A stretch of 62,371 bases of DNA, filler included, from Basidiobolus ranarum (lineage: Eukaryota): NCBI GenBank assembly GCA_040143965.1. It is 26 parts of 26 records of this genome, joined end to end, with 100 filler letters (N's around TTAATTAATTAA, not from the genome) between each part and the next. Parts side by side here need not be neighbours in the genome. Positions count along the whole stretch, not along the records: positions 31,310 to 33,609 come from JASJQH010003498.1; 25 more parts are not named here. The stretch is one strand, 5' to 3'. Shown in pieces: positions 6,130 through 59,977 of the stretch. Made by a program: the position numbers and the translations under genes. The stretch's first letter is position 1. Each line of letters starts with the position of its first letter. The notes under the pieces were generated by a model. It was not told the origin of the DNA and did no database searches. It saw only the letters and a list, made by a program, of their open reading frames with translations.

Positions 6130-7030
6130 CTTATTAACAATGTATCAGCAAAATCAGTGATGGATGTAATGCAATGGGTTAAGGAGACTCCAGAGTATAT
6201 TAGCCTGCAAACAAAGGGCTCTCTTCACTGTGCTCATGGGTTTTTGCATTGTTTGAGCATAATAACAGCAACAAAGCCCAATCCATGGACACAAAGTAAG
6301 TACCTCTATAATTGGACTAATTTGCTTGTGTGATAATCTGATGGTATTTTTAGGAAAGCTTCAAGACTGACTTCTTGGTGAGATAGATGGAGATACATAG
6401 TATTTTTGTTTTAGCCATGAGGTAATCTATTCAAGCAATGACACATCTACTTGTGGCAGGACATTTGTTGACTGCAAGTTGGGGATATATTGGCTGAATT
6501 CTTCACAGAAATTTGCCAAAATCCAAGAGCTTATTCTCATTGCAAATGGTAACAAGAGTCAGCTATTTGCCAATTGTCAGTGCTATTCAAAATTTCAGAT
6601 GTTTAGCAATTTTTCCACCATTAGTTTGCTGGTAAAGCATATTGATGTTGTTGAGTTAAGTCTAATCAATCAAGTATGTGCTTATGTAGAGACTTGACAC
6701 AATGAAATTCTTGTTTTTTTTGATTCTCGTTATGGCTGATATACAAAGCCTAAAATATCTAAATAAAGGCATGCATATTAATTCAAATTCCTACAGCAGT
6801 AAACCCAGTAATTTGCCATTCAAAAATTATATTTTTGCAAAAATTGCAGAATATTGAATAATGCATGCCAAATTTGAGGATCAATTTTGTAACATATATG
6901 AATACCATTAAAATACAATCAAGAAACCGCCATCACACCATCAAAATCCCTGGTAGAATGCAAGCCACTGATATTGTGATGGTTCTCTGATGGTTTTGCT
7001 ATTTTTGAGGGTGGATCCAATCTGGATCAG
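6130..7030 (+). mobile_element. CMC/EnSpm transposase C-terminal region and right subterminal sequence
   Basis: Colinear with 32440-33609. Lacks the LTR insertion seen at 33093 (empty site GCAGTAAACCCAG at about 6796). Confidence 0.85.
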
Positions 7031-9658: not shown

Positions 9659-11969
9659 GGAAGATCCGAGGATGCCTCGGGGCTACCGGTGGGATTCACC
9701 AATAACTCCACCCTCAGAGCCTCCATTTGCTTAAGCATCATTCTTAATTGATGCTTTGACATAATAGTATTTCTACAAGCGGCACGGAGCATCAGCTGAT
9801 TTCCTTGTGGTTCCATTTCTACACTAACAGAGAACTTGGGGAAGGTTAGTGACCGCTTTAATATAACTACATAGAAATTCCCATTCAAAAAACTTACTTC
9901 AATTTCTGCTTTGCCATCTACAATGTCCCAAAGTAAATCATTATCAGTATCTGAGGAATCTGCACCTTTTTGGAACAAGAATAATGTGTCAAATAATCTT
10001 TGACCATTGGTTGATTTGATTGCTTGCTTCAAAATTGCTCTCAAAGGAGTATGTTGATATTTGATACTTTCAACATTCATTTCGTGTATTCCGAGCGCGA
10101 GGTCAGCATTGGTTTGATATTCATTGACGTTAATTCTACAAGGTATCGTGTTAAACGAAGGTCCCATTATTGCTTCTGCATTCTCCACTGGGACTGTTCT
10201 ACCGGAAACGACTCTACCGAAAGTAACATCAGGCTCACCGAGGTAACAAGCAAGTAATTTACCCCAGGAGGCTTGACCCACCGCTTGCATCGTGATATTC
10301 ATCGATTGGCATATGGTTTCGACTTCTTCGACTGTCATGCTGCATGAAACCTCATCCATATTAACATCTATAACTTGTACATCGTCTGCTAATTCCGTTG
10401 GAGATGGGAAAGTGGATACGACGCAATTATCCAGTAATTGAGCCCAGTAATTGTTCGCTTCATCCTCCGGACGTGAAACAATGTATTCCACCATTGCCCT
10501 GTAAGGAGGTCTGTCGGGAAGTGGTTGTTCATAGTAGCTTAAATGAACATCCTGTAAAATCAAGGGAAGACTCCAACCATCATATAGAGCATGATGCAAA
10601 GACATAATAAGAAGTGTCTGATCGGCTTTCTTGATAACGCTGAAGGATATCGGGGGACGTTGCATATTCTTTGTTTGTTCCACTGCAGCTTCAATATGTT
10701 CTTCTACAATCAAATTTATGTCGCAGTTCTCGTCAACATCTAACTCAGACCAAGGCATCCAGACATCGCGATTTACTACTTGTAAGTAGCTGAATGACGA
10801 GTCAGTAGAGGGATAAAAGCTGGTTCTGAGGATATCGTTTTTCTGAATTAAAGAATTCCAAGCTTCCTTTAAAGTGCTGACGTCTACAAAAGGCTTGAGA
10901 GCAAAAGTAGTGTGGTTGAAATAAAGTTTTCCATTGGACTGGAGAGTGTGGGTTATCATTCCTTCCTGCATTGGTGTGCAAGGATACACGGCTACAATAC
11001 TTTCTTCTGGAATGTTGAGACCCTGTGTGATGGACAATTTAGAACGGTCCTCTAAGTGTCTAATCATCTCCTTGGCTTTCTCGATTTGTTCCTCCTCATC
11101 AATTTGCTCTAGGTCAGAGGTTTCTTCAAGGCGATCAAACATACGAGCAATAGTAGGGTGCTTCATAATGTCGGATACAGATAAGATAATCCCCTCCTCT
11201 TTAAGTTTGGCTGACAGCTTGATAGCACTGATAGAATCAAGACCAAGTTGGAATATTGAAGAATGACGACCAATTTCTTTTACGGGAACTTGTGCTACGG
11301 AGGAAATAGCCTGGCAAATCAGTTGCTCACCCTTCGACCAAAGCTCATAATCCTCCTGGGCAAGATTCTCACTCAAAAAGAAAGATTCATCGAGACTTTG
11401 ATATTTCTGAGTGAGTAATTTACGATTGATCTTGCCCGTAGTTCCAAGCGGCATTTTGTTTACCAAACATATATGACTAGGCACCATATACATAGGTAGT
11501 TTGCGTGATGCTGCTTCTAAAGCTACTTTGATTACAATCTGGGATTCTTCACTGACCGCAGAACCGGCAACAAGGGCAATATCATCCGAATCTTGCTCCA
11601 CAAGGCGAGAGGCCATAAACCCTACAAGCTGAGCTCTTTGTTGTTGTGGGTGCTTTATCACAAGTGTCACAACATCATCAATAGCTTCATGTGCTTTAAG
11701 AAGTACGTGGTTGATCTCTTCAAGTTCAATACGGAGTCCATTAAGCTTCACTTGATCATCCATTCTTCCGACAAAATCAATGGTTCCGTCATGTAGGATT
11801 CTAACAAGATCACCTGTTCTATAGATTCTCTCCAACCCATTCGATGTTCGAATGCTGATAAACTTCTCGGCAGTCAAATCAGGTCGATTGAGGTATCCTC
11901 TTGCAACATGTCGCCCACCTATACAAAGCTCCCCAATCCCACCCAAAGGCACTGATTGGAAAGTAGGAG
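9659..11969 (-). CDS. Nonribosomal peptide synthetase, ferrichrome/ferricrocin siderophore type (SidC/NPS2-like); internal fragment with end of A domain, T domain and C domain
   Basis: Uninterrupted frame. A-domain motifs GELCIGG..VARGYLNRPDLT, YRTGDL and GRMDDQVKLNGLRIELEEI; T domain IFQLGLDSISAI; C domain HHALYDGWS. Truncated by both contig ends. One probable intron at 9835-9897. The siderophore subtype is inferred from motif style. Confidence 0.93.
9835..9897 (-). other. 63-nt spliceosomal intron in the NRPS (in frame, no stop codon)
   Basis: Minus strand reads GAA|GTAAGT...CACTAAC...CCAAG|TTC. The ORF track reads through it as VSFLNGNFYVVILKRSLTFPK. Confidence 0.85.
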
Positions 11970-15419: not shown

Positions 15420-16370
15420 CTACCACTTATGCCGTGCTGCTCTTTCGGTAAGAGTGCAAAATCTGACCATTTGATTCGTCAAAGTGGGTTAGGAATAGGC
15501 TTATTCCAGTAAGAGCGCATATGGTTAGATCACACTTTTCCCAGAATCTCTCTTATTACTTATACATTGTTCATTTATTGGTATGTTGTCACTAGAACGC
15601 TAACTAAGAGCGCCCTGCTCTACCAGAATTACCGTGCCTCTGAGAGCTGGTGGACCTTCTTCCAGTTTAACCATACCCTCCAGGGTAAGACCGTGGTTGG
15701 AAATGGAGGAGACAATCGCAATGGAAACGGCGGCACCGGAGCTGGCGCATATGATGCTGGCAAGGGTAGTAATTAAACAGTGACGGTAACAGTGGCAAAG
15801 ATAATGGAGGAGATAATTGCAATGGAAATGGCAATAATAGAGCTGGCACTTATAATCCTGGAAAGAGTGGTAGTGGAAGCGGTACTGGAAGTGGTTGTTC
15901 CAACAACAGAGGAGATAATGGCAGTGACCATGGAGGTGAAAGAGCTGGCCCTTATGATGCTTGAAATAGTTGAGACACTGGAAATGGTAACAGTGGCAAT
16001 AGAGCTGGTGCCTATGATACTGGAAAGGGTGGAAATGGTAACGGTGGTTCTAGTAATGGAGGGGATAATGGCAATAGCGCTGGCGCTTATGATGCTGAAA
16101 AGGGAGGAAATGGAGAAGATGATGGTAATGGCAACAGTGGCAATGAGCTTCGCACTTATGATACTGGAAACGGTGATAATGGCAATGGAGACGGTAATGG
16201 TGCTGCTGGAAATGGAGGACACAATGGAAATGGTGGTAATGGAGCTGATGCCTAAAATACTGGAAAGAGCCGTAATGGAGATAGAAATCGAAGCGGTGGC
16301 GCTGGAAAGGTGATGATAATGGAGCTGGTGCTTATAATGCTGGAAAGGGTGGTGCTGGAAATGGGTTAGG
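15420..16370 (+). pseudogene. Gly/Asn-rich repeat protein pseudogene (unit approx. GAGAYD(A/T)GKGGNGNG)
   Basis: GGN-AAY codon frame with a frameshift at about 15774 and stops at 15962, 15971 and 16253. Paralogous to 25570-26407(-). Confidence 0.7.
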
Positions 16371-16519
16371 GTCAGTCTCTACCTCAGCATGCGTTACCTA
16401 AGTTTGAACAAATATTATATCCGCCTTTGAAGTCTCCTGAGCTATGTTTAGTTTGATGGTGTATGATTTATTCTTTTGTTCGTGTGATATAAGATGTATA
16501 CATGAAGAAAAAATAAGGT

Positions 16520-19295: not shown

Positions 19296-21432
19296 CTTTA
19301 TAGCAATAGTGTAAGTGAAGAGATTATAATCCCCCACTTATGTAGTAAATCAATAGTTAAGCAAAGTTCAACAGAAACACTGTCAAGACCATCAACTTCA
19401 AAAATGCCTTCTTTGCCAACTATTGAACACTCCTCAATAGACCATTTGAAAAGTAATCTCGCAACAAGGGTATCTGATTCAGAGCACCATTATGATTTGT
19501 ATGTGCTCATTAGTAATAACTACAAAGTTGCTATACATGCCATAGTAAGCAATAAAGCTACATTATTGGAAATAATGCAGTGTTCTGAGGTGATCAGTCA
19601 TCAGTTAGAGAGTCACCCAACAATGATACAAGATCTTTAGAATGCTGTACTTGAGCTACAGCAACATGCTGCTCCCTCTGCCCATTCTTATATGGGTTAT
19701 TGGTCACTTGCATATCATAAACACAAATGTCACCGTGACAATTTAGCAGAACAGAATATCTGTCAGACCATTAAGCCTACACAATGTTCTAAAATTACCT
19801 GTGTGCATAAAAGTAGTATTGAATTAGGAAAGTAACAACTCATTATTTGGTGGCTAGTTTACTTGTATTCTGATTTTATAGCACTAGATTCCAACATTCA
19901 AAAATATGTATTTATTGCTCTAGTTAATAGAAATATCTGTTAGATCACTTTTACCCATTTTGACTATTTTCTCAAAGCTTGTCCACATTGTTGCAAATCC
20001 TTACCCATGCTTTACAGCCATATTTGTTATGATCTAAGTATGTCCAGTAGTCCTATTTCATAATAAATTATTATATGGCATTTTCTGTTCAATAAAACCT
20101 AAGTGTCTATTTAACAAATCTGAATCCCCTAAACAGTTTTAGCAAGTAGATCTCTCTTGGGAAAACCAGCAAATAAAAGACTCTGAATAGCAGAGCTGCT
20201 ACCATTTCCTCTGATGATAACTGGTTTGAAATTTTGGAACTGTGCAGAATCATGTCCAAAAATACCTCAATTTGAGCCAATCATGAAAAACCACAAACCA
20301 GGCATTACTCAGAAGGTGTTGACTTATTTCTTGTGGCTCACCCTGGGTTTCTACAAGTAAATGGCAATTGAGCTAGTATAGGCCTATTCATGAAACATCT
20401 CAAAAATGTACTCAATTTTTCACTTGAAATAGAAATAAAAGCAGCTGAAGAAGTATTCAAGTAGCAGGGAGTTAGTTAACCCAAGGAAAGCAAAGGGGCC
20501 AGTGAGTTTAGGCTCTACTGTCCCACTTACTAAATTCTTCAAACAACTAATAAGAAATGTATTTGCAGAGTCAGATACAGCAGCAGATATACTGACAGAA
20601 GGCTCAATTTTACCATGGAACCAACTACACCAGTTGGAAGGGTGCTAAATTTGAAAGTTTGCCTAACACCAGGCATCTCTGAACAAGCCAAAACACCAGC
20701 AAATAAAATTCATGACTCCAACCCCAACTGGTACTTCTCAAAGTGTTGAAATTGGCCCCAAACTTAAAGGCAAGCAGAAAGCTGCACAAACACTGCAGAG
20801 CACCCCCAGTAGTGTCACACTACAAGGACTTATAAAATAGTCAAATTCCTTGAGGAGTATTTTCAAAAGTATGAAGGCAAAAATGACATGCAAGGTTGTA
20901 AAAAGTGGCTTCAGAAGAAGAGTTTTCAAATTTACATTCAGTCTGGTATTAACTGTGGAGATATCTGGGAAGATCTTAATACGGAGTGGCACAATATTGC
21001 AGGGTAACTGCCGGATAGCTGGAAGAATGTAGATTTAGCAATGTTAATACAATGGTGGGCTTTGATGGAGATATTGATACATACTTGTGTTGATATGAGC
21101 TAAACCTTGGGTATGAAGAACTCTATAAAATATTCATGAGAATATATTAAGGAAACTAGGAACTTTGATGTTGACAAATTAGTGCTCAAGTGGTGAATAT
21201 GTAAAATTTGAGTTACATTTTTTGCACATGTATTGATCCATATTTCCCTAAGATTTTAGCCAATCATGTGCAACTATTTTGCTAGATCTTGAATTTTCAC
21301 TACTCAAACTGAAAAATTGATTAAAACAAATCAAACTTGAAGATTTTATGCCATCAATTAAACAATCAATCCAAAATGGATTGAAAATGTGATAGTTTTC
21401 TTACTATAACAATCCTCAAATTTCTGTTAGGG
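19296..21432 (+). mobile_element. CMC/EnSpm: nearly full ORF X (degenerate) and left terminus
   Basis: Colinear with 2417-3960(-). Ends TTTCTGTTAGGG at 21432. Interrupted by a solo LTR. Confidence 0.85.
19817..20144 (+). repeat. Solo LTR, copia family B, with 5-bp TSD AGTAG
   Basis: Matches 40295-40647. AGTAG flanks it at 19812-19816 and 20145-20149. The empty site AAAGTAGAAATCTC is seen at about 41930 and about 3495(-). Confidence 0.88.
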
Positions 21433-25385: not shown

Positions 25386-25569
25386 TAAACATAGCTCAGG
25401 AGACTGCAAAGGCAGATATAATTATTGTTCAAACTTAGGTAATGCATTCTGAGGTAGAGACTGGCCAAGAGTAGGTAGATCTCCGGGTATAGTATCAGCG
25501 GAATCTGTATTTGTTATTTTCTGTGCATCATTACTCTCATTGTTGAATTTGAACCTATTATTTCCAAAT

Positions 25570-26407
25570 AAAGGCTACATCTCTTGGTAGGTTTTTCCAG
25601 CACCACCATTACCATCACCATCTCCACCCTTTCCAGCGTCACAGGCACTAGCTCTATTGCCATTATCCCTTCCATTACCAGAACCACCATGACTATTTCC
25701 GCCCTTTCCAGTATCTTAGACACCAGCTCCATTGCCATTGTTGCCATTACCATTGTCTCCTCCATTTCTTGTACCATTGTTTCCATCTCCATTGCTATTA
25801 ACATCCTTTCCAGTATCATATGATCCAGCTCTATTGCCACCGTTGTCATTGCCATTATCCCCTTCATTACCAGAACCACCGTTACCATCACCATTTCCAT
25901 TTCAAGCCATTCCAGTACCGTAGGTACTAGCTCCATGGCCACCATTGCCATTGTCTCAACTGTTTCAAGTATCATGAGGGCCAGCTCCTTCACCGCTGCT
26001 GTCATTGCTATTATCTCCTCTGTTGCCGGAACAACCATTTCCAGCACTGCTTCCACTACCACTCTTTCTAGAACCATAAGTGCTAGCTCCTTGATTGCCA
26101 TTACCATTGAAAATATCACCTCCATGACCTTTGCCACTGTTACTGTTGCTGTTCCCATTGCTACCCTTACTGGCACCATGTGCACCAGCTCTGGTGCCGC
26201 TATTTCTATTATGATTAGTTAAATTGTCTCCTCCATTTCCAAGCAAATGGTCCAATTTTGTACTCTTACCGAAGGAGTAGCGTGGGCTAATAGGTGGTAG
26301 GGCTAAAAGGTAGGATAAGTCCACTCTTGCCGTATGCACTCTTACTGGAATGGTTTTAACCCTAACCCTTTTTGACCAATCAAATGGTTTGATTTTGCAC
26401 TCTTACC
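25570..26407 (-). pseudogene. Gly/Asn-rich repeat protein pseudogene, second copy
   Basis: ORF 25965..26339 shows the GN frame (GNGGDN...GAGAHGASKGSNGN). Stops at 25965, 25956 and 25716. Paralog of 15420-16370. Confidence 0.7.
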
Positions 26408-31696: not shown

Positions 31697-33092
31697 TACT
31701 ATCCAAACACAACACTAAACTCCATGCTCTTACTGGCAAGAGCCAGGTCAGATTTCAACATGATCACTCACATCAATTCACTCAATTGTCAGTCTAACAT
31801 CAAGCATGATATTAGCTGTAAGCATAAGATTATTTTGCTAAAGGGGATCAGCTGGAGCCAGAGCTTCCCATTAGGCAGTATGCACTTACTATTCAACAAC
31901 ATTCCAATACTACTTACTCAGCTATATAGTGACAAATCAATATGAATGTGCTATTTGAGATAGGATCACAGTTTGAATCAATTGGGAAAATGCTTCAAAA
32001 TTCAAGATACCATCATATTTTACCAGGACTCCTATCAATATCCACTCATCTAGGCATTTATTCAAATGCAAAGATTGGAAGTATTGGATTTGTATGTGTT
32101 CAAGTAGAATTTGGAAATGTTTCTGCCTGATAAGTATTGGCAACATTGGGAGTTGTTTGTTGATATTGTTAATATATTCTTACAACATCAACTCACTTTG
32201 GCATATCTCAGGCAGATACAGCAACTGTGTGAAGCTTTTGTAGTTGGATATGAAAAACTTTGGTACAGGCTTAAAGAAGATGGACTGAATCTTTGTCAGT
32301 ATTCAATACATTCCCTGCTTCATCTTTCACAACACTTAGAGATTATAAGCTCCTGCTCTACATTCTGGGAGTTCCCAATGGAGTACACTTGTGGTGAAAT
32401 GATGCTCCATGTGAAATTGTCAGTATTACTGTATGCTAATCTGATTAACAATGTATCAGCAAAATCAGTAATGGATGTAAAGCAATTGGTTAAGGAGACT
32501 CCAGAGTATATTAACCTTCCAACAAAGGGCTCTTTTAATGTGCTCATGGATTTTTGCTTTGTTTGAGCCCAATAACAACAACAAAGCCAAATCCATGGAC
32601 ACAGAATAAGTACCTCTATAATTTGGACTAATTTGTTTGTTTAATAATCTGATGGTATTTATAGGAAAGCTGCAAGACAGACTTCTTGGTGAGATAGATC
32701 AAGATACACAGTATTATTGTTTTAGCCATGGGGTAATCTATTCAAGCAATGACACATCTACTTATGGCAGGACACTTGTTGACTGCAAGTTGGGGATATA
32801 TTGGCTGAATTCTTTATGGAAACTTGCCAAAATACAAGAGCTAATTCTCATTGTGAATGGTAACAAGTGTCAGTGCTATTCAAAACTTCAAATGTTTAGC
32901 AATTTTCTACCATTAGTTTGCTGGTGAATTATTGATGTTGTTGAGATATGTCTAATCAGTCAAGTATGTACATATGAAGAGACTAAACATAACAAGATTC
33001 TTGTATTTTTTGGTTCTCAGTATGGCTGGAATACAAAGCCTAAAATATCTAAATATTGGCATGTATATTGATTCAAATTCTTACAGCAGTAA

Positions 33093-33374
33093 TATTGAAA
33101 TTGTTTAGGGAGAATTATTGGTCTGGCCAGGATTTGAACCTGGGACCTCCTTCACTCTAGCAAGGTGCCCTAATCACTGAGCTACCAGTCCTTCTATGCT
33201 ATGTCCATATTGCTAGGGAGCCTTAACCTAGTCTGTCAATGTATGGTACTTTGGCATGTCAGCTATACAAGCAACTGATTGGCCTTAAACTGTGTGTTTG
33301 GATGCAGTCACCATACTGCATATTTTCCTCTTTAGGAATTACTGTTTGTAGCACAAGTCACCCAACTTTCAACA
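33093..33374 (-). mobile_element. 282-bp solo LTR containing a tRNA-like sequence (family D)
   Basis: Minus-strand termini TGTTGAAA...TTTCAATA. Flanked by AGTAA (33088-33092) and AGCAA (33375-33379). The empty site is visible at about 6796-6806. Second copy at 59853-59977. Confidence 0.85.
33119..33191 (-). ncRNA. tRNA-derived cloverleaf / Pol III promoter inside LTR D (73 nt)
   Basis: GGACTGG TAGCTCAGTGATTAGGGC A CCTTG CTAGAGT GAAGG AGGTC CCAGG TTCAAAT CCTGG CCAGACC A. It has A box, B box and four arms, with mismatches in the acceptor and anticodon stems. Confidence 0.8.
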
Positions 33375-33709
33375 AGCAAACCCAGTAATTTGCCATTTGA
33401 AAATTATATTTTTGTAAAAATTGCCAGATATTGAATAATGCTTGCCAAATTTGAGGATCAACATTTTGACATGTATGAATAGTGTCAAAATACTGTCAAG
33501 AAACTGCCATCACACCATCAAAATCCCTGGCAGGATGCAAGCCACCAATATTGTGATGGTTCACTGATGGTTTTACTATTTTGGAGGGTGGATCTGATCC
33601 AGATCAAATNNNNNNNNNNNNNNNNNNNNNNNNNNNNNNNNNNNNNNNNNNNNTTAATTAATTAANNNNNNNNNNNNNNNNNNNNNNNNNNNNNNNNNNN
33701 NNNNNNNNN

Positions 33710-36109: not shown

Positions 36110-37824
<1,715 letters not shown>

Positions 37825-38508: not shown

Positions 38509-38725
38509 TCATAACAAACATGCCTGTTAAGCATGGGTGAAAATTTGAGGTGATTTGGAGAAGTTTTGAGAAAATAGTGAAAATTGGTAAAAGTGATCTA
38601 ATTGATATTTCTATCAATTGGAGCAATAAACACACGTTTTTGAATGACAGAATTGAGTACTAAATAATCAGAATATGAATAAACTAACTACTAAATAATG
38701 AGTTGCTATTTACCTAATTTCAACA
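38509..38725 (-). repeat. Partial family B LTR
   Basis: Reverse complement begins TGTTGAAATTAGGTAAATAGCAACTC and matches 40295. Confidence 0.85.
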
Positions 38726-38860
38726 TATATGACTGGAGAGCCTGCTGGAGACTTTGGATGTTTGATAAATCCTTTCTCCAAATTTTCCTTGATATACTCC
38801 TTCAGAATGCTTGGCTCTGGCTGAGTCAACCCATTGAAAGGTCTAAATGGTGGTTGTATT

Positions 38861-40294
38861 TGTTAAAATTAGATAAATGGCAACTCAGTATTTAGCAGTT
38901 AGTCTATTCATATTCTGATTATTTAGTGCTCAATTCGTCCATTCCAAAATGTGTGTTTATTGCCCTATATGATGGAAATATCAATTAGATCACTTTTGCC
39001 AATTTTCACTATTTTCTTAGAGTTTCTCAAAACCACCTCAAATTTTCACTCATGCTTGACAGGCATTTTTGCTAAGATCCAAGCATATCTAATAGTCTGA
39101 TATCATAGTAAGCTATAAATAGGACATATTCAATTCTACAAAACTCAAGTGTCTAATTCTGAAATCCATATCTTTTCCAACTCACTTCCAAATCCACTCA
39201 ACACTTTTATCAGGTTATGAGCCCCAAGCTAGCTGTTGAAGGAATGTCTACCAGTACTATCCCAACCTTTTTGCATCTATAGAGAAGTTTGATAGTCAAG
39301 ACTTTCACCTTTAGAAGTCCAAGATGTAAATGGTGCTAGAAGACAAGGACCTTTGGGGATTTGTTACTGCAGAAGTAATATAGCTAGAGGGACCCCTAGA
39401 AGCTATCCTTGCCTTCAAAAAGAAGAAGAGGAAAGCACTCTCTACACTTTGTCTATATCATAGAGATTCTCAATTGAGGCACATACATTCAGCCAAAAAT
39501 GTTCAAACTGCTTGGTATACACTTGATGGACTATATAAGACTGAAAGTTTGGCTAATATGCTATATCATAGGTGAAAGTTGCTCTCAATTTGCAAGCTTT
39601 GTGTTGATTTTATGGCTATTCATATAAATTGGATAAAGAATATGGCCAATGAGCTCTCATCCGGTTGAGCATCTCTAAATGGAGATTTCTTAGTCATGAA
39701 ACTACTTGGGAGCATGCCAGACATATTTGTGAACCTTATAATTGCCCTAGAATGAAGATCAGAGCCATTGACAATGCAATATGTTGGTGCTTGGCTTTAG
39801 AATGAGTAATTAAGGAGATCTAATTCTTAGCAAAATAATGTAGATCACCATTTTTTGGAGCCAACAAACATCCGACAGGCTTCACAGGTGGTGCCTCTCA
39901 TATGAAATAAATTATCTGCAAGTATTACAGGAAACCAGGCTACTTTATCAAAAATTGCATAACAAGGATTTTTGCCAAATAAGCTCAAATCACAACAAGC
40001 AAATTCAATAAGCACTGATTGGGATCATTCATCTGTGTCTGTTCTATCTGTAACTACTAAGGAAAACTTGGATATGTGGTACATTAACTCAGGAGCCTCT
40101 CAGCATATGTCTAATAAGAAAGATTGGTTATTTAGCTTAAAACCCATCTAATCAAGAAAAGTCCACTTATGTAATGACTTTGCACTGGATATTGTTGGTA
40201 AGGGCATAGTTGTGTGCAATTAAGACCAAAATTCATCTATAGCATCTGCAAAATTTTTATGAGGTACTCTATCTTTCCAATTTTGCCAATAATC
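38861..40294 (+). mobile_element. Copia family B: 5' LTR (38861-39212), PBS, gag and protease (degenerate)
   Basis: LTR ends TTTATCA, then GGTTATGAGCCCC. Fragments include VLEDKDLWGFV, a zinc-knuckle remnant and WYINSGASQHM (copia protease). Confidence 0.9.
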
Positions 40295-40807
40295 TGTTGA
40301 AATTAGGTAACTAGCAACTCATCATTTAGTAGTGGGTTTATTTGAATTCTAATTATTTGGTACTGAATTATGTCATTCAAAAACATGTGTTTATTGCTCT
40401 AATTGATACAAATAGTAATTTGATCACTTGTACCAATTTTCACTGTTTTCTCAAATCTTCTCCAAATCACCTCATATTTTCACCCATGCTTAACAGGCAT
40501 GTTTTTTATGATCTAAGCACATCCTAAAAGTCCTACTTCATAGCAAAATATAAATAGGACATATTGAATTCTGTGAAATTTGAGGTTCTAATTCTCAAAT
40601 CCCAATCTTGTCCAAAATACTTGCAAATCCCCTGAACACTTTTATCAGGTTATGAGCCCCAACCAAGCCATTAAAGAAATGTCAACCAGTATTATTACTA
40701 TTGTTTTTGCCTTCCCCGAGAAGCTTGATCGTGAAGACTTTCACCTTTGGAAGTTCAAGATGCAAGTGGTGCTAGAAGACAAGGACCTTTGGGGATTTGT
40801 TACAGCA
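40295..40807 (+). mobile_element. Second copia B element nested in the first: LTR (40295-40647), PBS and gag start
   Basis: TGTTGAAATT...TTTATCA, PBS at 40648-40660, then EKLDREDFHLWKFKMQVVLEDKDLWGFV. Confidence 0.92.
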
Positions 40808-41022: not shown

Positions 41023-41660
41023 TTTTGGACATTTTTGGCCGATGGTATGTGCCTCAATTGATTGTCACTGAGATGTAGCCAAAGTGTAGAGAGTGCTTTC
41101 CTATACTTCATGTCAAAGGCAAGGATAGCTTCTGGTGGTCCCTTTGGCACTATTTCTTCTCCAGTAACAAATCCCAAAGGCTTTTATCTTTTGGCACCAT
41201 TGGTCTCTTGAACTTTCAAAGATGAAAGTCTTCACCGTTGATATTCTCTGTGGATGTTAAAACTTTGGTAATTGAAATCGCTTTAACAGCTAGCTTGGGG
41301 TTCAAAACCTGATAAAAGTGTTTAGGGGATTTAGGAGTGTTGGGCAAGACTTGAATTTGTGAATTAGATACTTGGATTTATTTCTAATTGAATGCATCCC
41401 ATTTACAGTTTACTATGAAATAGAACTAATGTGATGTGCTTAAATAATAACAAATGTGCCCATTAAGCATGGGTGAAAATTTATGGTGAATTGGAAAAGA
41501 TTTGAGAAAATAGTGAAAATTGGTAACAGTGATTGAATTGATATTTCTATTCACTCAAATAATAAGCACATGTTTTTGAATGACAGAGTTGCATATGAAA
41601 TATTCAGAAAATGATTAAACCAACTACTAAATAATGAGTTTCTATTTACCTAATTCAACA
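41023..41660 (-). mobile_element. Copia family B: LTR (41310-41660), degenerate PBS and gag start
   Basis: Reverse complement matches 38861-39505. Confidence 0.88.
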
Positions 41661-52892: not shown

Positions 52893-53566
52893 GAGCTAAA
52901 CCTTGGGTATGAAGAATTCTATAAAAATATTCAGGAGAATATATCAAAGAGACTAGGGATTTTGAAGGTGACAAATTAGCATTCAAGTGGTAATTGTGTA
53001 AAAATATGAGTTACATTTTTTGCACATGTGTTGATCCATAGTTCTCTGAGATTGTAGCCAATCATGCACAACTATTTAACAAGATCTTGAAATTTCACTC
53101 CTGAAACTGAAAAAATTGATTAAAATCAAATCTAACTTGATGATTTTATGACAGTAAGTAAATGATCAATCGCAAATGGATTAATATTGTGATGGTTTTC
53201 CTACAATAACAATCCTCAAATTTCTGTTAGGGTATATCCTAGGCATGAAGTAGTTTGTGACAATTTTTAGGAGAAGATAGCAAAGAAACTGGAGATTTTG
53301 AAGGTGACACATTAGCATTTATGGGGTAAATTTTTAAAATTTGGGTTAAAATTTTAACATATGTGTTGACCCATAGTTTTCTAATACTGTGGCCAATTGT
53401 GTGGAACTACTTTGCAAGATCTTTAAGTTTTGCTCTTGAAATTGAAAAAATCAATTAAAATCAAACCTATCTTGATGATTTTGTGATGGTGTGTAAATGA
53501 GCAATCATTAAGGCATCAAATATGTGACAGTTTTCTGACAACAACCATCCTCAAATTTCTGTAGGG
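52893..53566 (+). mobile_element. Two CMC left ends in tandem (young copy ending 53232, older copy ending about 53566)
   Basis: CAATCCTCAAATTTCTGTTAGGG and CCATCCTCAAATTTCTGTAGGG. Confidence 0.85.
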
Positions 53567-53619
53567 GTACTTTAACAAGTCCCTGCATTAGATATATACC
53601 TGCACAGCCCTAATATGTG

Positions 53620-59852: not shown

Positions 59853-59977
59853 TATTGAAATTATTTAGGGAGAAATATTGGTCTGGCAAGGATTTGAACC
59901 TGGGGCCTCCTTCACTCTAGCAAGGTGCTCTAACCACAGAGCTACCAGTCCTTGTATGCAATGCCTATATTGCTAGG
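59853..59977 (-). mobile_element. Second copy of tRNA-containing LTR D (truncated by the contig end)
   Basis: Aligns from the same terminal base as 33093, but in a different flank. Confidence 0.85.
59879..59951 (-). ncRNA. tRNA-derived cloverleaf inside LTR D, copy 2
   Basis: GGACTGGTAGCTCTGTGGTTAGAGCACCTTGCTAGAGTGAAGGAGGCCCCAGGTTCAAATCCTTGCCAGACCA, with a perfect GCTC/GAGC D-stem. Confidence 0.8.

What the first reader, a model, noticed from the sequence alone, without database searches (positions are those of the whole stretch)
33093..33374. LTR carrying a complete tRNA-like gene: candidate Pol III-driven LTR retroelement family in a fungus
Seen: a 282-bp insertion with TGTTGAAA...TTTCAATA ends and a 5-bp target duplication (AGTAA/AGCAA), absent from the homologous site at about 6796. 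This is the structure of a solo LTR. It holds a 73-nt cloverleaf with A and B boxes ending 26 nt from the LTR end, with no T4 terminator after it. A second insertion at a different site (59853) has the same boundary. The LTR end TCTCCCTAAACAATTTCAATA resembles the copia family B end TCCCCTAAACACTTTTATCA. Known: Cassandra elements carry 5S rRNA in their LTRs; I recall tRNA- and 5S-bearing non-autonomous LTR groups (Ajax, Helenus), but I do not recall a tRNA-bearing LTR with copia-like ends in fungi. Inference: a probably non-autonomous element transcribed by Pol III from the 5' LTR into its internal region and mobilised by copia machinery.
Basis: partly seen in the sequence, partly recalled or inferred. 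Interest (0 to 1): 0.85.

Follow-up and report, generated by a model that had tools for sequence, protein, structure and literature searches.

The report
tRNA-bearing solo LTR in Basidiobolus
This is a leftover single LTR of a retrotransposon family whose LTR carries a tRNA-like sequence, a kind already described in 2024 as Helenus in rust fungi, here seen in the distant fungus Basidiobolus ranarum.

Summary
A 282-bp insertion (33093-33374, sense on the minus strand) has a 5-bp target duplication (AGTAA/AGCAA). It is absent from two paralogous sites. It carries a 73-nt tRNA-like cloverleaf (Rfam tRNA 51.1 bits) that ends 26 nt before its 3' end, and its sense strand has no TTTT. A second copy (59853-59977) shares the 3' boundary but is cut by a contig end.

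Both termini match resident Copia LTRs. The 5' TGTTGAAA is the start of at least two, probably three, local LTR families. The 3' 21 nt match Copia-B LTR ends at 14 of 21 positions (about 2 in 10,000 background 21-mers). A Copia-B solo LTR in the window also has a 5-bp duplication.

Kojima 2024 (PMC10886601) described Helenus: small LTR elements with a tRNA-like sequence in the LTR, 5-bp duplications in fungi, and likely mobilisation by Copia.

What is new is the host. The window is Basidiobolus ranarum (Zoopagomycota), whereas fungal Helenus is listed only from Pucciniales and a few Agaricomycetes.

Paired LTRs, a primer-binding site, a polypurine tract and Pol III transcription could not be tested, because no genome or reads were available. 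Verdict: new member of a known kind, modest interest.

The parts
33093..33374 (-). 282-bp solo LTR. Sense strand reads TGTTGAAA...TTTCAATA. It divides into a U3-like part (nt 1-183), a tRNA-like part (nt 184-256) and a 26-nt tail.
   Evidence: It is absent from two paralogous sites. BLAST breakpoints are at contig-14 positions 1783 and 2066. Its termini match resident Copia LTRs.
33119..33191 (-). 73-nt tRNA-like sequence. Anticodon position reads AGA (33156-33158). A box lies at 33174-33184 and B box at 33130-33140.
   Evidence: ARAGORN. Rfam tRNA 51.1 bits, E 4.8e-08, with non-standard pairs A3.A70 and G31.G39.
33088..33092 (.). Target-site duplication, left copy (AGTAA).
33375..33379 (.). 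Target-site duplication, right copy (AGCAA; 4 of 5 identical to the left copy).
6798..6802 (+). Empty paralogous target (AGTAA) in another copy of the host repeat, on contig 3.
42799..42803 (-). Second empty paralogous target (AGCAA), on contig 18.
59853..59977 (-). Second copy of the LTR. Only its 3' 125 nt are present (LTR nt 158-282), because the contig ends there. It sits in the same host-repeat family about 122 bp from the first site, in the opposite orientation. The DNA beyond its 3' end is host repeat, not a primer-binding site, so it is a solo LTR or a 3' LTR.
   Evidence: 91.2% identity over 125 bp. Flank homology. Sequence.
59879..59951 (-). tRNA-like sequence of copy 2.
   Evidence: ARAGORN. 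Rfam 46.8 bits. It has the same two non-standard pairs as copy 1, plus one in the T stem.
40295..40664 (+). Reference for comparison. Resident Copia-B LTR (40295-40647, TGTTGAAATTAGG...CACTTTTATCA) followed by the primer-binding site GGTTATGAGCCCCAACC. This is the candidate type of autonomous partner.
19812..20149 (+). Reference for comparison. Copia-B solo LTR (19817-20144) with a perfect 5-bp duplication AGTAG on each side.
   Evidence: Homology to contig-17 LTRs.

Best explanation
The 282-bp insertion is a solo LTR, and 59853-59977 is a truncated second LTR copy. They belong to an LTR-retrotransposon family of Basidiobolus ranarum whose LTR carries a tRNA-derived module. That makes it a Helenus-type element (TRIMp3 in Kojima 2024).

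Shown here: integration with a 5-bp duplication, LTR termini shared with resident Copia LTRs, and a tRNA-like cloverleaf with A and B boxes inside the LTR in both copies.

Inferred by analogy with Cassandra and Helenus:
- The full element is a short non-autonomous unit: LTR, primer-binding site, short internal part, polypurine tract, LTR.
- RNA polymerase III starts at the tRNA-like +1 (LTR nt 184) of the 5' LTR and reads through the T4-free tail, the internal part and the 3' LTR. The 99-nt stretch from tRNA +1 to the LTR end then serves as the terminal repeat (R) for strand transfer.
- Reverse transcriptase and integrase come in trans from a resident Copia that shares its LTR ends. Such a Copia is primed at a site of the GGTTATGAGCCCC type.
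- LTR-LTR recombination then left the solo LTR.

The tRNA-like part is probably a promoter relic and not a working tRNA. It is 73 nt with AGA in the anticodon position, and two stem mismatches are shared by both copies.
For: - Exact insertion with a 5-bp duplication, checked against two empty paralogous sites.
- The 5' octamer TGTTGAAA opens the Copia-A and Copia-B LTRs and a third repeat family. It occurs 23 times in 124,742 strand positions; my own composition estimate expects about 4.5.
- The 3' 21 nt match Copia-B ends at 14 of 21. Only 18 to 29 of 118,700 background 21-mers match as well.
- A Copia-B solo LTR has the same build and a perfect 5-bp duplication.
- Copia proteins are present in the window: gag_pre-integrs, rve_3, SH3_retrovirus.
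- The tRNA-like module scores 51.1 and 46.8 bits in 2 of 2 copies, which are 9% diverged. No stand-alone tRNA-like hit appears elsewhere in the window at E<=5.
- The sense strand of the LTR has no TTTT.
- The module's +1 lies 99 nt from the LTR end. The TATAAATA of the Copia-B LTR lies about 90-100 nt from its end, so the two promoter regions occupy comparable positions.
- Published Helenus has the same set of traits in fungi (PMC10886601).
Against: - No paired LTRs, internal region, primer-binding site or polypurine tract of this family were seen. Only 2 copies exist in the window, one of them truncated.
- No genome, no sequencing runs and no hits in metagenome or genome collections.
- The lack of TTTT is not significant: 15.1% of 282-nt windows here lack it.
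- The termini are TG...TA, not the canonical TG...CA.
- The rest of the LTR shows no similarity to the Copia-B LTR.
- Folding energy of the 73-mer is no better than shuffles (z 0.16 and -0.12), and copy 2's lowest-energy fold is not a cloverleaf.
- The tRNA-like part is not clearly more conserved than its flanks: 5 of 73 differences against 6 of 52.
- There is no RNA evidence for Pol III initiation.
Confidence: 0.6

Rival explanations
1. It is the LTR of an autonomous or large Pol II-transcribed Copia family. Such a family could once have taken up a tRNA- or SINE-derived fragment in its LTR. The tRNA-like part would then be a passenger, not the promoter.
For: Copia-type termini and a 5-bp duplication. 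A CCAAT motif followed by a TATA-like TGTATAG lies about 70-85 nt upstream of the cloverleaf (nt 100-118 of the sense strand). No short internal region was seen. The tRNA-like part is not clearly more conserved than its flanks.
Against: None of the Copia LTR-to-primer-binding-site junctions found in the window carries this LTR: 5 exact junctions and 1 variant. The cloverleaf and both boxes are kept in two copies that are 9% diverged. In the published fungal cases such LTRs belong to short non-autonomous elements.
Confidence: 0.2
2. It is a small DNA transposon (MITE) with 8-bp terminal inverted repeats and a 5-bp duplication that happens to contain a tRNA-like sequence.
For: The ends TGTTGAAA and TATTGAAA are inverted repeats matching at 7 of 8 positions. 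The size fits a MITE.
Against: The inverted repeat does not extend beyond 8 nt. Both ends, in the correct orientation, match the 5' and 3' ends of resident Copia LTRs, and the 3' similarity runs over 21 nt asymmetrically. A Copia-B solo LTR shows the same build.
Confidence: 0.07
3. It is a tRNA-derived SINE mobilised by a non-LTR (LINE) element.
For: It contains a tRNA-like module with A and B boxes.
Against: The tRNA-like part lies at nt 184-256 of 282, not at the 5' end. There is no A-rich or simple-repeat tail. The boundaries are fixed, with TG...TA ends and a 5-bp duplication.
Confidence: 0.03
4. The cloverleaf is a working tRNA gene that the LTR spreads around the genome.
For: Full-length match to the tRNA model, 51.1 bits.
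Against: A 73-nt molecule with an AGA anticodon lacks the long variable arm of serine tRNAs (general knowledge). Both copies share A3.A70 and G31.G39 mismatches, and copy 2 has a further T-stem mismatch. Kojima found most Helenus tRNA-like parts non-functional.
Confidence: 0.03

Closest known systems
Helenus (TRIMp3), fungal families of Pucciniales such as LTR-1_PTrit and Helenus-9_PSt. Source: Kojima 2024, Biology 13:119, PMC10886601.
   Same: A tRNA-derived sequence with conserved A and B boxes sits inside the LTR. Duplications are 5 bp. Solo LTRs are common. The tRNA-like part is often called Ser-AGA or Thr-AGT by tRNA finders but is not functional. The LTR body is unlike the partner's LTR. 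Dependence on Copia is inferred, and the partner Copia is primed at the anticodon loop of initiator tRNA. Resident Copia elements in this window have a primer-binding site that looks to be of that type.
   Different: The host is Basidiobolus ranarum (Zoopagomycota). The paper lists fungal Helenus only from Pucciniales, Agaricus, Coprinopsis and Amylostereum, and its screen was seeded from Repbase and extended only to relatives of positive genomes. Here the LTR ends do resemble the resident Copia LTR ends. No full-length copy is available. Sequence relationship to any named Helenus family is untested.
Cassandra: plant short LTR elements (TRIMs) with a 5S rRNA sequence in the LTR (Kalendar et al. 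2008), as summarised in the introduction of PMC10886601.
   Same: A Pol III-type small-RNA module sits inside each LTR of a short non-autonomous LTR element.
   Different: Cassandra carries 5S, not tRNA. It has a conserved Pol III terminator in the 5S part that yields an 18-bp terminal repeat. This LTR has no T4 at all in its sense strand, so the terminal repeat would be the 99 nt from tRNA +1 to the LTR end. Cassandra is found in plants, not fungi.
Resident Copia families A and B of this genome, for example the LTR at 40295-40647.
   Same: The 5' end TGTTGAAA, a similar 3' end, and a 5-bp duplication.
   Different: There is no similarity across the LTR body. The Copia-B LTR has a TATAAATA box where this LTR has the tRNA-like module. 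The LTR is 282 bp against about 352 bp.

Membership tests
Helenus (TRIM with tRNA-derived sequence in its LTRs; Kojima 2024) | tRNA-derived sequence inside the LTR, with box A (TRGCY ... YGG) and box B (GGTTC) conserved. | tested here: met
   TAGCT and GGTTC are present in both copies. The YGG position reads TGA in copy 1 and TGG in copy 2. Rfam tRNA scores 51.1 and 46.8 bits. This rests on the 282-bp unit being an LTR.
Helenus (TRIM with tRNA-derived sequence in its LTRs; Kojima 2024) | The unit is an LTR: two direct copies flank an internal part. | not testable with these tools
   Only one solo copy and one truncated copy lie in the window. The indirect evidence is positive: the termini and duplication are those of resident Copia LTRs.
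Helenus (TRIM with tRNA-derived sequence in its LTRs; Kojima 2024) | A primer-binding site just after the 5' LTR and a polypurine tract before the 3' LTR. | not testable with these tools
   No internal region of this family is in the window. All 5 exact copies of GGTTATGAGCCC and 1 variant follow Copia-A or Copia-B LTR ends, not this LTR.
Helenus (TRIM with tRNA-derived sequence in its LTRs; Kojima 2024) | Short, non-coding full length (311-1263 bp in the paper). | not testable with these tools
   No full-length copy is available. The LTR length of 282 bp lies within the published LTR range (120-323 bp are the figures mentioned).
Helenus (TRIM with tRNA-derived sequence in its LTRs; Kojima 2024) | 5-bp target-site duplication (fungal and plant Helenus). 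| tested here: met
   AGTAA/AGCAA, with a 5-bp overlap of breakpoints against two empty sites. This rests on 1 copy only.
Helenus (TRIM with tRNA-derived sequence in its LTRs; Kojima 2024) | Sequence relatedness to a named Helenus family. | not tested
TRIMp3 (short LTR element driven by a Pol III promoter) | Transcription by RNA polymerase III from the small-RNA module. | not testable with these tools
   No RNA data. The only support is a permissive condition: no TTTT in the sense strand, which 15.1% of random windows also show. Kojima states this is unvalidated for Helenus too.
tRNA-derived SINE | The tRNA-related head is at the 5' end, the 3' tail is A-rich or a simple repeat, and duplications vary in length. 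| tested here: not met
   The tRNA-like part lies at nt 184-256 of 282. There is no tail. The identical 3' end TTTCAATA appears in 2 of 2 copies.
Functional tRNA-Ser gene | Class II tRNA with a long variable arm and intact stems. | tested here: not met
   73 nt with a short variable region. A3.A70 and G31.G39 mismatches occur in both copies. The class II rule is general knowledge.

The most novel reading that the evidence does not exclude
This is the first Helenus-type (Pol III-promoter) LTR element lineage outside the Dikarya. It would be an independently born family in the early-diverging fungus Basidiobolus ranarum that parasitises Copia elements primed at the initiator-tRNA anticodon loop. 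It would make its terminal repeat without any internal Pol III terminator, by read-through of the whole T4-free 3' LTR. That would show that swapping a tRNA module into a Copia-type LTR has happened repeatedly across fungi. It would also mean tRNA gene counts in Basidiobolus assemblies are inflated by it.
Probability: 0.45. Interest if true: 0.45.

Novelty: new member of a known kind. Interest (0 to 1): 0.3.

Why it matters
If full-length copies exist, the known range of tRNA-promoter LTR elements in fungi extends from Pucciniales and a few Agaricomycetes to the Zoopagomycota. That would support repeated origin of such elements.

There is also a practical annotation warning. tRNA finders will call these LTRs 'tRNA-Ser(AGA)' genes in Basidiobolus, as happened in rust genomes (Table 2 of PMC10886601).

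The finding does not open a new mechanism. The concept, the Copia link and the 5-bp duplication are already published.

Tried and rejected
- Whole-genome search for more copies: no genome is held for this window.
- Earlier findings of this scan: none by sequence, by place or by words.
- Two metagenome scans with conserved stretches of the tRNA-like part: 0 hits each.
- Prokaryote genome scan: 0 hits.
- Viral contig scan: 1 hit (L001). It is a 22-nt chance match in GC-rich coding DNA with no tRNA, so I rejected it.
- Protein search with the 49-aa open frame that runs antisense through the U3-like part, in the hope of finding spurious ORF calls on other copies that would extend into an internal region: no candidate.
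- Sensitive BLAST of the element against the window: only the two copies, plus 16-18-nt chance matches. The 58636 match does not look like an LTR end.
- Alignment of the element to three Copia-B LTRs: no similarity beyond the termini.
- Rfam at E<=5: no further tRNA-like sequences.
- Pfam on the ORF of the host repeat (32108-32563): no family, so the host repeat stays unclassified.
- Literature. A search for 'TRIMp3' listed 6 papers, and only Kojima 2024 is relevant. A search for 'Basidiobolus' + 'retrotransposon' + 'tRNA' found 13 papers, of which 5 were listed. None of the 5 is about such an element by title or abstract. One of them (10.1101/2023.09.13.557621) was checked by term search and says nothing on it.
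- The supplements of PMC10886601 (consensus sequences, Table S1) could not be seen. They may bear on whether any Basidiobolus or other early-diverging genome was screened.

Full report
**What the window is.** The 62,371-base window is not a continuous locus. It is 26 contigs of 2,294-2,316 bp, sorted by falling length and joined by N44-TTAATTAATTAA-N44 linkers. The finding lies on contig 14 (31310-33609). The 'homologous site at about 6796' is on contig 3 (4832-7145). The second copy is at the very end of contig 25 (57683-59977).

An NRPS fragment on contig 5 is 97% identical, over 91% of the query, to 'hypothetical protein K7432_017227, partial [Basidiobolus ranarum]'. That protein's contig is 2,311 bp, the exact length of contig 5. 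The organism is therefore Basidiobolus ranarum, an early-diverging fungus (Zoopagomycota), at about 35% G+C. It is not a rust.

**Checking the observation.** The insertion is 33093-33374 (282 bp). Its sense strand, meaning the strand on which the tRNA-like sequence reads 5'->3', is the minus strand. That strand reads TGTTGAAAGTTGGG...CCCTAAACAATTTCAATA. It is flanked by AGTAA (33088-33092) and AGCAA (33375-33379).

Contig 3 has the uninterrupted target CAGCAGTAA|ACCCAG. I found a second uninterrupted paralogue on contig 18 (42799-42803, minus strand: TAGCAGCAA|ACCCAG). In both comparisons the BLAST breakpoints overlap by exactly 5 bp. The two empty paralogues carry AGTAA and AGCAA, so the single T/C mismatch in the duplication is an ordinary point difference. 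These paralogues are about 87% identical copies of an unclassified repeat, not alleles. Its ORF has no Pfam match.

**The tRNA-like part.** ARAGORN calls a 73-nt 'tRNA-Ser(AGA)' at 33119-33191(-) and at 59879-59951(-). The Rfam tRNA model scores them at 51.1 and 46.8 bits, against a gathering score of 29. These are the only tRNA matches in the window even at E<=5.

In sense coordinates the module is LTR nt 184-256, followed by a 26-nt tail. Box A reads TAGCTCAGTGA in copy 1 and TAGCTCTGTGG in copy 2. Box B reads GGTTCAAATCC. Both copies share two non-standard pairs, A3.A70 and G31.G39, and copy 2 has one more in the T stem.

A 73-nt molecule cannot be a true serine tRNA, which needs a long variable arm (general knowledge). 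The module is therefore tRNA-derived and probably not a working tRNA. Its folding energy is no better than shuffled controls (z 0.16 and -0.12). Copy 1's lowest-energy fold is the cloverleaf, whereas copy 2's is not.

However, 15.1% of 282-nt windows here (15,882 of 105,128) also lack TTTT, so this alone proves nothing.

**The second copy.** Copy 59853-59977 is 91.2% identical over the 125 nt that the contig retains. It diverges from copy 1 exactly after TTTCAATA. It sits in another copy of the same host repeat, about 122 bp from the equivalent of the first site, in the opposite orientation. The DNA beyond its 3' end is host repeat, not a primer-binding site, so it is a solo LTR or a 3' LTR. 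Differences between the copies number 5 of 73 inside the tRNA-like part and 6 of 52 outside it. That shows no clear extra constraint on the module.

**Is it an LTR?** The window holds several Copia fragments (gag_pre-integrs, rve_3, SH3_retrovirus) and clear LTR-to-primer-binding-site junctions.
- Family B reads TGTTGAAATTAGG...CCCCT(A/G)AACACTTTTATCA | GGTTATGAGCCCC (38861-39212, 40295-40647, 41310-41659 minus).
- Family A reads TGTTGAAATTAGCATTGCC...CTTTAACA | GGTTATGAGCCCC.

The element's 5' octamer TGTTGAAA is the 5' end of families A and B. It also opens a third repeated family, whose LTR nature I did not check. The octamer occurs 23 times in 124,742 strand positions, against my own composition estimate of about 4.5. 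By my reading of the contexts, at least 13 of the 23 begin copies of those three families.

The element's last 21 nt match Copia-B LTR ends at 14 of 21 anchored positions. Only 29 of 118,700 (B3 end) or 18 of 118,700 (B4 end) background 21-mers do as well, and those counts include the Copia-B ends themselves. Against family A ends the match is weaker: 10-11 of 21, with background fractions of 0.012-0.038.

A Copia-B solo LTR at 19817-20144 has a perfect 5-bp duplication, AGTAG. It has the same architecture as the finding. Outside the termini the element and the Copia-B LTRs do not align. The inverted repeat at the element's ends is only 8 nt (7 of 8 matching), as is usual for LTRs and short for a MITE.

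The ends are TG...TA in both copies, a non-canonical pair. From memory, LTR-finding software lists TG...TA among known non-canonical pairs; no call checked this.

Taken together, the solo-LTR reading is well supported. It rests, though, on termini and the duplication, not on seeing an LTR pair.

**What is known.** It is recorded. Kojima 2024 (PMC10886601; abstract, methods, results, discussion, legends and tables read) defined Helenus as short LTR elements (TRIMs) with a tRNA-derived sequence in their LTRs. The paper reports the following:
- 113 families in Pucciniales, plus Agaricus, Coprinopsis and Amylostereum.
- 5-bp duplications in fungi, and many solo LTRs.
- tRNA-like parts that are mostly non-functional and that inflate counts of 'tRNA-Ser-AGA' and 'tRNA-Thr-AGT' genes.
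- LTR bodies unlike those of the Copia partner.
- Pol III transcription proposed but not validated.

Every feature I could test here agrees with this description. The resident Copia primer-binding site GGTTATGAGCCCC looks to me like the initiator-tRNA anticodon-loop type. That is my own reading of the sequence, since no tRNA gene of this genome was available for comparison.

**What differs.** The host is the main difference. The paper's text has no mention of Zoopagomycota, Mucoromycota or Ascomycota, and its screen was seeded from Repbase and extended only to relatives of positive genomes. I found no paper in the searchable library reporting such an element in Basidiobolus.

A second, smaller difference is that here the LTR termini do resemble the resident Copia LTR termini.

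**Mechanism.** The following steps are inferred, not shown.
1. By analogy with Cassandra, where Pol III transcripts start in the 5S part of the 5' LTR, Pol III would start at LTR nt 184 of a 5' LTR.
2. It would read the 73-nt module, the 26-nt tail, a primer-binding site, a short interior and a polypurine tract.
3. Because the LTR has no T4, it would then read the whole 3' LTR and stop at the first T-run in flanking DNA. That T-run lies 48 and 74 nt downstream of the two copies here.
4. The terminal repeat for strand transfer would then be the 99 nt from tRNA +1 to the LTR end.
5. The module's +1 lies 99 nt from the LTR end. The TATAAATA box of the Copia-B LTR lies about 90-100 nt from its end. 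This fits a swap of a Pol II core promoter for a Pol III one.
6. Copia proteins supplied in trans would reverse-transcribe and integrate the copy, recognising the shared ends.
7. LTR-LTR recombination would leave the solo LTR.

**Limits.** I could not obtain any further copy.
- Two metagenome scans and one prokaryote-genome scan found nothing.
- One viral-contig hit was a chance match.
- A protein search with an open frame crossing the U3-like part found nothing.

As a result, non-autonomy, the primer-binding site and polypurine tract, full length, copy number and Pol III transcription are all untested. So is the relationship to named Helenus families. A Pol II-driven autonomous Copia with a passenger tRNA fragment remains a live rival (about 0.2).

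**Verdict.** It belongs to, or works like, the published Helenus/TRIMp3 kind. The only new element is the host lineage, so this is a new member of a known kind, with interest of about 0.3.

Noticed in passing
window 1-62371: The window is a chain of 26 unrelated small contigs (2,294-2,316 bp, sorted by falling length) joined by N44-TTAATTAATTAA-N44 linkers. Distances and 'neighbourhood' between contigs therefore mean nothing.
   Followed up: yes
window 9661-11967 (-): NRPS fragment with adenylation-end, carrier and condensation parts. It is 97% identical to a partial Basidiobolus ranarum protein, and this match identifies the organism.
   Followed up: partly
window 38509-40807 (contig 17): A nest of Copia-B LTRs. 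Two direct LTRs (38861-39212 and 40295-40647) are each followed by GGTTATGAGCCCC and a decayed gag. An inverted partial LTR starts at 38725(-). Five exact copies of this primer-binding site occur in the window: 339+, 39213+, 40648+, 60355-, 22035-.
   Followed up: partly
window 19812-20149: Copia-B solo LTR (19817-20144) with a perfect 5-bp duplication, AGTAG. Its first dinucleotide has mutated from TG to TA.
   Followed up: yes
window 33093 and 59853, with host repeat copies on contigs 3, 14, 18 and 25: Both tRNA-bearing LTR copies sit in copies of the same unclassified repeat, about 122 bp apart in repeat coordinates and in opposite orientations. This could reflect a target preference or simply the abundance of that repeat.
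   Followed up: no
window 15600-16378 and 25514-26402: Two related low-complexity stretches (contigs 7 and 11) have long open frames on both strands and internal repeats. Their nature is unknown.
   Followed up: no
window 36298-37125 (+): Open frame with Zap1-type C2H2 zinc fingers (Pfam Zap1_zf1, E 1.2e-16).
   Followed up: no
window 52906-53569 (contig 23): Two adjacent direct copies of a unit of about 330 bp (77% identical). The same unit also ends contigs 8, 9, 6, 14 and 15. It is a terminal region of some other repeat family.
   Followed up: no
window 2892(-), 20744(+), 34807(-): A third repeat family whose copies begin TGTTGAAA(T/C)T(A/G)GC...AAACTTAAAGG. It may be another LTR family sharing the same 5' end.
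   Followed up: no
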